64,000 bases of DNA, from assembly GCF_000143415.4 (NCBI RefSeq), contig NW_003314320.1, forward strand, positions 432,586 through 496,585, read 5' to 3'. A program made the translations under genes and the position numbers. This document shows positions 52,789-55,562 of this stretch, in pieces. The stretch is from Selaginella moellendorffii. Taxonomy: Eukaryota; Plantae; Lycopodiophyta. The notes under the pieces are model-generated. The model worked only from the letters and a program-made list of their open reading frames with translations, did no database searches and was not told the origin of the DNA. Position 1 is the stretch's first letter, and every line of letters begins with the position of its first letter.

Positions 52789-55562
52789 GTTGAGCAAGTC
52801 GCCATATGGGGTGCCGGTGTTATTTGTGAAAAAGAAAGATGGATCTATGCGCATGTGCATAGACTACCAGTTGCTCAACAAGTATATAAAGAAGAACAAG
52901 TACCCTTTGCCAAGGATTGAGGACCTGTTCGATAGGTTGGGAAAGACAAAATACTTCTCGAGGATTGACCTAAGGTCAGGATACTACCAGATCAGGGTAG
53001 TCGAGGAAGATGTCGAGAAGACAACTTGTCGAACGAGGTATGTGAGCTTTGAGTTTCTGGTGATGCCCTTCGGGCTATGTAATGCGCCGGCAATATTTTC
53101 GGCGCTAATGAACCACATCTTTGTACCCTATCTAGATCACTTCGTGGTTGTCTATATCGACGACATCCTGATCTATAGCGAGATGCTAGAGGAGCATGCC
53201 GAACACTTGGCGAAGGTGTTTGAGAAACTAAGGGAACACAAACTGTATGCTAAAGAGAGCAAATGTGACTTTGCTCAGCAAGAGGTAAAGTTTCTCGGGC
53301 ATGTGGTGGGCCAAGACGGGCTCAAGGTGGACCCAGAGAAGGTCCAAGCAATCCAGGAATGGGAGCGACCATTGAATGTACACGAGTTGAGGGCATTCCT
53401 GGGGCTATGCAACTACTATCGAAAGTTTATCAGACACTATTCGAGAGTAGCCTTGCCCTTAACGGACCAAACAGGAAAAGGGAGGATGGTGTGGACAGCG
53501 GAATGCGAGGCGGCATTCGTCCATCTCAAAGGGAAGTTGAGGAAGGCTCCCATATTGGCATTACTAGACTTTGGTAAGGACTTTGAGGTAGAAACGGATG
53601 CTTCGGACTTTGCGTTGGGCGCAGTTTTGAAGCAAGACAACCATCCGGTAGCGTTCTTCTCGAAGAAGTTGGACAAGGCTCAATGGAAGTGGCCTGTCCA
53701 CAAGAAGGAATTGTTTGCGGTGGTCAAGGCGCTCAAGGAGTGGCGACACTACCTTGGGAGACACTTTAAGGTTTACACGGACAATATGGCAACGAAACAC
53801 TTCTTGTCACAGCCCGACCTGAGAGGGAAACAAGGTCGGTGGGCCAATGCCTTGGCCGAGTTTGATTGCGAGATTCTGTACAAGCCTGGGAAGAGCAACA
53901 TCGTGGTGGATGCGCTAAGTCGAAAAGCGAGCTTGAGGTTGGCAATATCCAGCGCAACAACAACCTTTTGGGACGATGTGCGGACAGCATATGAGAATGA
54001 TGGTCTAGCACAAGAAGTGTTGCTGAGGAATCTAGAGGTGCGGGAAGCTCACCAGAGAGGTGAGCTGCCAACGGAAGAGAAAACGGGCTATGCGGAACGC
54101 AACGGACTTATCTATTACAAGCAAACGAGGGTGTATGTTCCAGAAGGGGAACTAAGGAAGGTGGCCTTAGAAAAGTGTCATGACGGACCTCTTGCGGGAC
54201 ACGGTGGAGTGCCCAAGACGATGGGCTTACTCAAGAGGAAGTACCATTGGCCAGATATGGCTAAGGACGTCCAAGACTATGTAAAGACATGTCCAACATG
54301 TCAGCAGGTAAAAGCCGTGACTAAGGCTAGTGGGGGCTTGTTGCAAAGCATCCCAATTCCAGATCGTCCGTGGAAATGTCTTACGATGGACTTCATCACG
54401 GGACTCCCCCCAAGCGAGGGGTTTGATGCGATATTCGTGGTGGTGGACCGATTTTCGAAAATGGCACATTTCATACCCACCACAACAGAGGTGGATGCGG
54501 AAGGTGTGGCAAAGCTATTCTTCGAACAAGTGGTTCGAGTGCGGGGAAGACTGGAAGAGATCATCTCAGATCGAGATAAGATCTTCACCAGTAGGTTCTG
54601 GAGGACTCTCTTGGAACAGTATCGCACCAAGTTGAAATTCAGCACAGCCTATCACCCACAGACAGGTATGGGGTATTAAGTCAAGTTGTTAGCACTAACA
54701 CTTCTTGATAGATAGACAAACGGAAAGGGTGAATAGGCAGCTGGAGGATTATTTGCGATGCTATGTCTCGGGAGACCAGACCGATTGGGTAAGTCATTTG
54801 GGACTTGCGGAAATGTGTTATAACAACTCACCACATTCGAGTATTAGGGTGATTCCATGGGAAGTCATCAATGGGCGAGCTATTGAAGGTCCTGTGGAAC
54901 TTGGCATGGCCGAGTATCATGGAGAGTTGCCCGCAGTGGAGGCATTCGCGGCGGAAAGACTCAGCATTTGGAATCTAGTGAGGGATTCCTTGGAACGGGC
55001 TCAACAAAGGCAAACCAAATACGCGAACCAGAAGCGTCGGGATGTAGAGTTCCAAGCTGGGGAGAAGGTGTGGCTGAACACAAAGAACCTCAGACTACCA
55101 AGTGGGATCAGCCGAAAGTTGACCCAAAGGTAAAGATGCATGTATTCCTGTAAATGAATTGATCTTGAGTTCCTTAAGCAGGTTCGCGGGCCTTACGAGA
55201 TTGAGGCACGAATCGGTAAAGTAGCTTACCGACTCCGACTTCCTCGAGAGATGGGAAAGATGCACCCAGTGTTCCACGTGAACTTACTCAAGCTGTACTT
55301 TGAGGATTCGCTTCGCAAGGACTAAGTGAGACCTTTACCAGAGGTTATCCAAGGGGAAGAGGAATACGAAGTCGAGGCCATCCTCAATGCGCGCAAGAGC
55401 AAGCGACAAGGACGCGAGGTGAGAGAGTTCCATGTGAAGTGGAAAGGATTTCCACACTGCGAAGCAACATGGGAACCAGAGGAGAACCTAGCGAATGTGC
55501 GAGATCTAGTGGAGGAATTTCTGCAAGGCAGAACTCTATGTACTTATGCAAAGTTCAATTAA
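52769..55562 (+). pseudogene. pol: pol of element C (RT, RNase H, integrase, chromodomain), interrupted by two intron-like inserts
   Basis: [53 protein letters not shown] and chromodomain YEVEAIL..VKWKGFPHCEATWEPEENL. Confidence 0.96.

What the first reader, a model, noticed from the sequence alone, without database searches (positions are those of the whole stretch)
54641..55200. Spliceosomal-type introns interrupting the integrase of an LTR retrotransposon
Seen: two short inserts with canonical splice signals split conserved gypsy integrase motifs. Intron 1 (54666-54711, 46 nt) has donor GTATGG, branch-like CACTAAC and acceptor TTGATAG. Removing it restores [16 protein letters not shown], matching the canonical HPQTDGQTERVN next to the catalytic Glu of the DDE triad. 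Intron 2 (55130-55181, 52 nt, GTAAAG...TAAGCAG) separates KLTQR from FAGPY (canonical KLxPRFxGP); a separate 1-nt deletion follows in this copy. Both inserts carry in-frame stops and match host intron size. The gypsy remnant at ~13 kb has no inserts at the equivalent motifs. Known: introns are normally lost during retrotransposition, and the recognised exceptions (Ogre PR-RT intron, spliced copia gag RNAs, retroviral env) need unspliced RNA to be copied. Inference: active integrase needs a spliced RNA while the unspliced RNA is packaged and reverse-transcribed, giving a splicing-gated life cycle. I cannot confirm that this is undescribed.
Basis: partly seen in the sequence, partly recalled or inferred. 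Interest (0 to 1): 0.9.

Follow-up and report, generated by a model that had tools for sequence, protein, structure and literature searches.

The report
Spliced introns inside a retrotransposon integrase
A highly repeated plant jumping gene has two short introns cutting through its integrase gene, and public assemblies that are probably RNA show both removed exactly, so it likely makes its integrase from spliced RNA while copying itself from unspliced RNA, which a retrotransposon normally cannot do without losing the introns.

Summary
Confirmed and extended. Two GT-AG inserts (54666-54711, 54666 in phase 1; 55130-55181) interrupt the integrase of a full-length chromovirus with LTRs and target duplication. 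Contigs from 3 of 4 probable-RNA runs (two studies) skip both exactly; the fourth retains both. Genomic contigs show no such skip among the best-supported joints, so the inserts look family-wide. Two spliced sequence types differ at 13 listed sites, 12 silent, so the spliced frame is under selection. Sizes match SM1-Galahad of Selaginella moellendorffii, whose authors found no intact copy and reported an ORF stopping before the chromodomain plus two short ORFs, without mentioning introns (PMC3350952); the match is by numbers, not sequence. Unspliced RNA would give an integrase lacking its catalytic Glu. All spliced contigs end at 55509-55519, before the PPT: a weak hint that spliced RNA is polyadenylated early and cannot be copied, which would explain intron retention. 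Splice-controlled LTR elements are known (Ogre, EVD, BARE1, foamy pol); introns inside an integrase were not found in ten paper searches. The scan had no look-alike.

The parts
49986..49990 (.). Left copy of the 5-bp target site duplication
   Evidence: Same five bases at 57109-57113
49991..51137 (+). 5' LTR, 1147 bp, TG...CA, with 12-bp tandem repeats and a poly-G tract
   Evidence: about 94% identical to the 3' LTR over 984 aligned bases
51141..51152 (+). Primer binding site of tRNA-Met type
   Evidence: likeness to the Met PBS is recalled, one base differs
51197..52788 (+). gag (with CCHC knuckle) and protease; decayed in this copy (a frameshift and stops)
   Evidence: Pfam Retrotrans_gag, zf-CCHC, RVP_2; three-frame translation
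52770..52785 (+). Site of a deletion in this copy, removing the protease-RT linker (about 404 bp, inferred)
   Evidence: Loose ends of genomic contigs at 52770 and 52776; linker 24 codons here against 113-190 in 8 homologues; size from arithmetic on the published ORF
52763..54665 (+). RT, RNase H, integrase zinc finger and core up to HPQT (end of exon 1); holds two of the three DDE residues
   Evidence: Pfam RVT_1, RT_RNaseH, Integrase_H2C2, rve; aligns to Ty3 Gag-Pol 7q5b up to HPQT
54666..54711 (+). Intron 1, 46 nt, phase 1, GT-AG, in-frame stop
   Evidence: Skipped in X15, X16, X18, net 46 nt; retained (47 nt) in X17
54712..55129 (+). Exon 2: catalytic Glu helix and integrase core-to-SH3 linker
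   Evidence: 44% identical to P0033 over 142 aa; 6 of 7 differences between two spliced types silent, p=0.008
55130..55181 (+). Intron 2, 52 nt, phase 2, GT-AG, in-frame stop; AGGT stands at both junctions
   Evidence: Skipped in X15, X16, X18; both ends retained in X17 contigs
55182..55562 (+). Exon 3 coding part: GPY/F-SH3 module and chromodomain; a 1-nt deletion near 55187 and a stop at 55323-55325 in this copy
   Evidence: Pfam SH3_Tf2-1 1e-14, Chromo 5e-17
55537..55589 (+). AT-rich stretch around the stop codon; candidate internal poly(A) signal (inferred, weak)
   Evidence: Lowest-GC window of 51190-55560 (0.22); spliced contigs end at 55509, 55514, 55519
55952..55965 (+). Polypurine tract
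   Evidence: Directly before the 3' LTR
55966..57108 (+). 3' LTR (with an assembly gap)
57109..57113 (.). Right copy of the target site duplication

Best explanation
The two inserts are real spliceosomal introns that are cut out of this element family's transcripts, and the element likely uses two RNAs: a doubly spliced one, the only one predicted to give a complete integrase, and an unspliced full-length one that is likely the template for new copies. Shown: GT-AG inserts, exact removal in contigs of probable-RNA runs, retained forms in another run, presence across genomic copies, selection on the spliced frame. Follows from the sequence: unspliced RNA would be translated to Gag-PR-RT-RNase H plus an integrase that stops four codons into intron 1, without catalytic Glu, SH3 module or chromodomain. 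Inferred: spliced RNA is kept out of reverse transcription, most likely because it is cleaved and polyadenylated at the AT-rich stretch by the stop codon, about 400 nt before the PPT and 3' LTR, so it lacks the PPT and the 3' R needed for copying (about even odds for this particular cause). Once that separation exists, introns gained in a DNA copy cannot be purged by retrotransposition, which would account for two unrelated introns in one gene.
For:: joints 54665>54715 and 55131>55188 with 3 and 5 letters between, i.e. net skips of 46 and 51 (52 less the base this copy lacks), in X15, X16 (study P2) and X18 (P4); single contigs carry both joints in X15 (2500 nt) and X16 (1083 nt). X17 (P3) retains intron 1 whole and both ends of intron 2, and agrees with X15 at 24 of 25 listed sites in 54550-55082. 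X15 and X18 differ at 13 listed sites, 12 silent (exon 2: 6 of 7, p=0.008; window against X15 in exon 2: 11 plus 1 X17/X18-only site, 12 of 17 listed sites silent, p=0.002), so at least two lineages are spliced and evolved under selection in the spliced frame; 53,670 genomic contigs laid, depth in the bin holding 50 of the 52 bases of intron 2 (825k) lies between its neighbours (940k, 759k); neither skip is among the 15 joints shown of 84 (lowest shown 169) nor in the table of left-out letters (4% floor). PMC3350952 section 2.1: no intact copy among hundreds; the multi-copy reconstruction ends before the chromodomain with two further ORFs of 316 and 309 bp; here 318 and 309 bp. Spliced contigs end at 55509, 55514, 55519 with no loose end and nothing laid beyond, while the contig crossing that stretch comes from X17, the run with retained introns. 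Splicing coupled to early termination is documented for Arabidopsis Ty1/copia (PMC5580714, passages).
Against: X15-X18 are RNA only by the tool's guess and are contigs, which show no strand, level or true end; the tool rates a shared stop as a weak hint and a filter drops some records. X17's retained forms may be DNA carry-over. Raw RNA reads were too few to test anything (12, 3 and 0 reads). 69 joints and some counts were not shown for X1, so a rare intron-less genomic copy is not excluded. Only 40 of 80 variant rows were shown and the selection test uses those. X22 has a few reads at 55666-55900, so the 3' region is present in some RNA. No particle RNA, cDNA or polysome data.
Confidence: 0.7

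Rival explanations
1. Splicing is real but spliced RNA is full length; unspliced RNA wins by selective packaging, a separate promoter or a separate RNA pool, as in barley BARE1, with no early polyadenylation.
For: Distinct translated and packaged pools are reported for BARE (PMC3735527, abstract); Ogre keeps a partly spliced intron (passages in PMC6317226). The 3'-end hint rests on three contigs.
Against: Three spliced contigs from two studies stop within 11 nt of each other just before the most AT-rich stretch of the element's coding part.
Confidence: 0.35
2. The family is non-autonomous for integrase: the inserts killed it, the related single-ORF family (SM2-Galahad) supplies integrase in trans, and splicing is incidental.
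For: A close relative with one intact ORF and hundreds of copies is reported in the same genome; no intact SM1 copy was found.
Against: Both inserts are removed to the base and exon 2 is under purifying selection in the spliced frame, which a dead integrase would not show. 'No intact copy' is explained by the introns.
Confidence: 0.07
3. The spliced contigs come from one or two intron-less (retro-copied or domesticated) loci, not from present-day splicing.
For: Low-depth joints in the genomic run were not all shown (69 of 84 hidden); RNA status is a guess.
Against: Two spliced types differing at 13 listed sites; the X15 type is seen with introns in X17. An intron-less copy lacking exactly both GT-AG segments would itself record past splicing.
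Confidence: 0.08
4. Random copy-specific insertions that happen to look like introns.
For: This copy is decayed elsewhere (deletion, frameshifts, stops).
Against: Family-wide presence and exact removal.
Confidence: 0.01

Closest known systems
SM1-Galahad of Selaginella moellendorffii (Novikov et al. 2012, PMC3350952; sections 2.1, 2.3, legends and table read, supplement searched)
   Same: LTR 1146 bp (here 1147), poly-G tract, Met PBS, about 7.5 kb (here 7118 plus an inferred 404-bp deletion = 7523), long ORF ending without chromodomain, downstream ORFs of 316 and 309 bp (here 318 and 309), altered chromo box.
   Different: The paper treats the breaks as separate ORFs and says no intact copy exists; 'intron' and 'splic' occur 0 times in its main text. 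No sequence was available for direct comparison.
Ogre (Ty3/gypsy, Tat lineage); seen through passages in PMC6317226, PMC4408406, PMC12786077; the original paper was not held
   Same: Plant Ty3/gypsy element keeping an intron that is spliced from a subset of transcripts to allow translation of downstream domains.
   Different: [quoted passage not shown]
EVD and other Arabidopsis Ty1/copia shGAG RNAs (PMC5580714, passages); BARE1 (PMC3735527, abstract)
   Same: Spliced and unspliced RNAs with different jobs; in EVD splicing is coupled to early termination.
   Different: There splicing shortens the product to Gag and the unspliced RNA encodes the whole polyprotein; here it is the reverse.
Foamy virus spliced pol mRNA (PMC7828637, passages)
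   Same: Integrase-containing Pol is made only from a spliced RNA while unspliced RNA is the genome.
   Different: The splice removes gag sequence upstream of an unbroken pol frame; no intron interrupts the enzyme.
Penelope-like elements with introns (recalled, not read); antisense intron-bearing accessory genes of fungal gypsy elements (lead from an earlier scan note, untested)
   Same: Retroelements that keep introns.
   Different: Penelope elements are not LTR elements; antisense introns are not exposed to splicing on the genomic RNA, whereas these are sense introns.

Membership tests
Ty3/gypsy chromovirus | LTRs with TG...CA, target duplication, PBS, PPT | tested here: met
Ty3/gypsy chromovirus | Domain order gag-PR-RT-RH-INT with C-terminal chromodomain | tested here: met
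SM1-Galahad | LTR over 1 kb with poly-G, Met PBS, about 7.5 kb | tested here: met
   (length includes an inferred deletion)
SM1-Galahad | Main ORF 3885 bp without chromodomain, then ORFs of 316 and 309 bp | tested here: met
   309 exact, 318 against 316; 3885 implies a 404-bp deletion, which fits the frame offset (1 in 3 by chance) and a 159-aa linker
SM1-Galahad | More than 80% nucleotide identity to the exemplar | not testable with these tools
   No sequence in the text or supplement
SM1-Galahad | Host is Selaginella moellendorffii | tested here: inconclusive
   No close named hit for a host gene (its length window excluded full-length proteins); 0 of 9 exact look-ups. Land-plant genes with short introns fit.
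Galadriel/Galahad clade | Placement by RT phylogeny | not tested
   No labelled references were held; Met PBS and 5-bp TSD fit Galadriel and not self-priming Tcn1
U2-type spliceosomal intron | GT-AG ends, branch-like motif, AT-rich, host-like length | tested here: met
   branch motif clear only in intron 1
U2-type spliceosomal intron | Exact removal in transcripts | tested here: met
   3 of 4 probable-RNA runs
U2-type spliceosomal intron | Lariat formation and dependence on the spliceosome | not testable with these tools
   needs lariat reads or RT-PCR
Ogre-type intron | Intron between protease and RT | tested here: not met
   Both introns are in integrase; the linker itself is deleted in this copy, so a further intron there cannot be excluded
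EVD-type shGAG splicing | Splice yields a short Gag-only RNA | tested here: not met
   The spliced X15 contig is 2500 nt and covers integrase to chromodomain
Introner (intron-generating transposon) | Repeated intron sequence with terminal repeats | tested here: inconclusive
   The two introns are unrelated (461 of 500 shuffles score as high) and show no terminal inverted repeat; no genome was held to look for copies elsewhere

The most novel reading that the evidence does not exclude
An LTR retrotransposon that has escaped intron loss: splicing is coupled to an internal poly(A) site, so the integrase message can never be copied and the copied RNA can never make integrase. The element then gains introns like a host gene, and host splicing efficiency sets how much integrase it makes and gates its transposition.
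Probability: 0.45. Interest if true: 0.88.

Novelty: new variant of a known kind. Interest (0 to 1): 0.78.

Why it matters
Intron loss is the classic proof of retrotransposition and the basis of reporter assays, and a 2025 review names only Ogre and EVADE as plant exceptions (PMC12786077, passages). A successful high-copy family with two sense introns inside the integrase shows a way round that rule, gives a natural sequence tag that tells template RNA from message RNA, and so makes the old question of how retroelements sort the two directly testable. It also warns that ORF-based screens will call such families dead: the matching family was published as having no intact copy.

Tried and rejected
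No whole genome was held, so copies could not be counted or aligned. No RNA holder was listed as on record; raw RNA reads of X22-X24 gave 12, 3 and 0 reads, no test. Searches for the same intron elsewhere: degenerate pattern for an intron at site 1 gave 0 viral contigs and 33 metagenome loci, 0 of 33 an integrase (one codon choice only, so a narrow test); exon 2 found no relative in viral contigs or among 77-247 aa proteins. The family is absent from the top protein hits (best full-cover identities 47% and 55%), so the introns' spread to other species is open. Atlas search named only unannotated integrase-like clusters. Host naming failed. A third intron at 55540 (to 55589 or 55602) was considered: AT-rich with GT and AG, but no contig skips it and X17 crosses it unspliced. 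The 13-kb remnant was rejected as a control (other family). Summed contig depth was not used as copy number. Paper searches without a report of introns in an LTR integrase; the library lacks most subscription journals, Repbase was not available, and two large REXdb supplements (element table, sequences) could not be read, any of which may note the introns.

Full report
Observation. They are two of the three most AT-rich 46-nt windows between 51190 and 55560. Only one of the equivalent cut positions of each reads GT..AG. With X at the first break, 35 residues separate the second catalytic Asp from the Glu (the D-x35-E rule is recalled). Of 263 homologous proteins carry the first motif unbroken, 26 lack it and 19 differ in other ways; 117 match a strict pattern for the unbroken second motif.

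The element. It is a full-length Ty3/gypsy chromovirus: LTRs 49991-51137 and 55966-57108, about 94% identical over 984 bases, a 5-bp target duplication, Met-type PBS and PPT; gag, protease, RT, RNase H, integrase, SH3 module and chromodomain in order. This copy is dead: stops, frameshifts and a deletion of the protease-RT linker. It sits inside a reversed solo LTR of its own family.

Genomic copies. No assembly was held. In the genomic run X1, 53,670 contigs were laid on the 4.85-kb internal region. Depth does not dip in the bin that holds 50 of the 52 bases of insert 2 (825k between 940k and 759k); neither skip appears among the 15 joints shown of 84 (lowest shown 169, highest 683) or among letters left out at 4% or more; a contig 86% alike runs from exon 2 into insert 2, and 21 loose ends show the acceptor of insert 2 in other copies. 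The tool warned that some joints were not counted, so rare intron-less copies are not excluded.

Transcripts. Raw RNA reads were too few (12, 3, 0). Of six contig runs guessed to be RNA I laid four. X15 and X16 (one study) and X18 (another) skip both inserts; after allowing for the letters that the tool lists between the two sides, the net skips are 46 and 51, the latter being 52 less the one base that this copy lacks. X17 (third study) retains intron 1, there 47 nt long, and both ends of intron 2, and agrees with X15 at 24 of 25 listed sites; this may be unspliced RNA or DNA carry-over. X15 and X18 differ at 13 of the listed sites that both cover, 12 silent (exon 2: 6 of 7, p=0.008 against a 34% expectation for transitions); 12 of the 17 listed exon-2 sites are silent relative to the window (p=0.002). 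Only 40 of 80 variant rows were shown. So at least two lineages are spliced, and the frame beyond intron 1 has been kept by selection.

How the introns survive. Unspliced RNA would encode a polyprotein stopping four codons into intron 1, with no catalytic Glu, SH3 module or chromodomain; only doubly spliced RNA can give a whole integrase. Since copies keep both introns, the copied RNA must be mostly unspliced (inference). The three spliced runs stop at 55509, 55514 and 55519 with no loose end and nothing laid beyond, just before the most AT-rich stretch, which surrounds the stop codon and lies about 400 nt before the PPT; the only contig crossing it is from X17. The tool rates this a weak hint. 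If it marks a poly(A) site, spliced RNA lacks the PPT and 3' R and cannot be copied. Splicing coupled to early termination is documented, with the opposite coding outcome, for Arabidopsis Ty1/copia (PMC5580714, passages). The alternative is selective packaging or separate RNA pools as in BARE (PMC3735527, abstract). I put about 0.93 on real introns, 0.7 on the two-RNA life cycle and about 0.5 on early polyadenylation as its cause.

What is known. PMC3350952 (passages, sections 2.1 and 2.3, legends and table read; supplement searched; figures not seen) describes SM1-Galahad of Selaginella moellendorffii: hundreds of copies, no intact one, LTR 1146 bp with poly-G, Met PBS, about 7.5 kb, a 3885-bp ORF ending without chromodomain, and two more ORFs of 316 and 309 bp. 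Here the LTR is 1147 bp, the two ORFs are 318 and 309 bp, and 3885 bp implies a 404-bp deletion that fits frame, linker length and total length. The paper never uses 'intron' or 'splic'. The identification rests on these numbers; neither the exemplar sequence nor a named host hit could be obtained. Known splice-dependent relatives are Ogre (passages; original not held), EVD and BARE1, and foamy virus pol (PMC7828637, passages); none has an intron inside an enzyme domain in what I read. PMC2864245, PMC3605345 and PMC5718144 (passages) added nothing on this. Ten searches found no report; subscription journals, Repbase and two large REXdb supplements were out of reach. The scan's own notes held no look-alike sequence, nothing for this genome, and none of the 8 shown of 18 word matches describes introns within an integrase.

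Spread. No trace of the same intron was found outside this organism: 0 viral contigs, 0 of 33 metagenome pattern hits real, and no close protein relative. These tests are narrow.

Verdict. Real, family-wide, spliced introns in the integrase of a probably known family whose broken reading frame had been noticed but not explained. New variant of a known kind; interest 0.78.

Noticed in passing
window 49632-49988 and 57109-57900: The element inserted into a reversed solo LTR of its own family, splitting it in two.
   Followed up: yes
window 52770-52785: Copy-specific deletion of the protease-RT linker, about 404 bp; other copies continue with different sequence on both sides. Whether that linker holds another intron is unknown.
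   Followed up: partly
window 55540-55602: AT-rich stretch with GT and AG that could be a third intron or, more likely, a poly(A) signal region; no contig skips it.
   Followed up: partly
window 55128-55183: AGGT stands at both junctions of intron 2, as expected if it was gained by insertion into a proto-splice site with a short duplication (interpretation recalled).
   Followed up: no
window 54418, 54471, 54970 (runs X17, X18): Probable-RNA contigs that leave the element into unrelated sequence: chimeric transcripts or rearranged copies.
   Followed up: no
window 45661-47412: LTR-like pieces of a related family with a much expanded 12/23-bp tandem array, about 70% alike to this LTR's repeat region.
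   Followed up: no
window 45167-46258 and 61403-62550: Another repeat present twice, partly direct and partly inverted, 79-90% alike.
   Followed up: no
window 12480-13850 (minus strand): Old gypsy remnant of another family, RNase H to chromodomain region, no inserts at either site.
   Followed up: yes
window 5811-9180, 10728-11258, 37085-40505: Host genes: P-type ATPase with short introns, lipid transfer protein, NIN-like protein (GAF, RWP-RK, PB1).
   Followed up: partly
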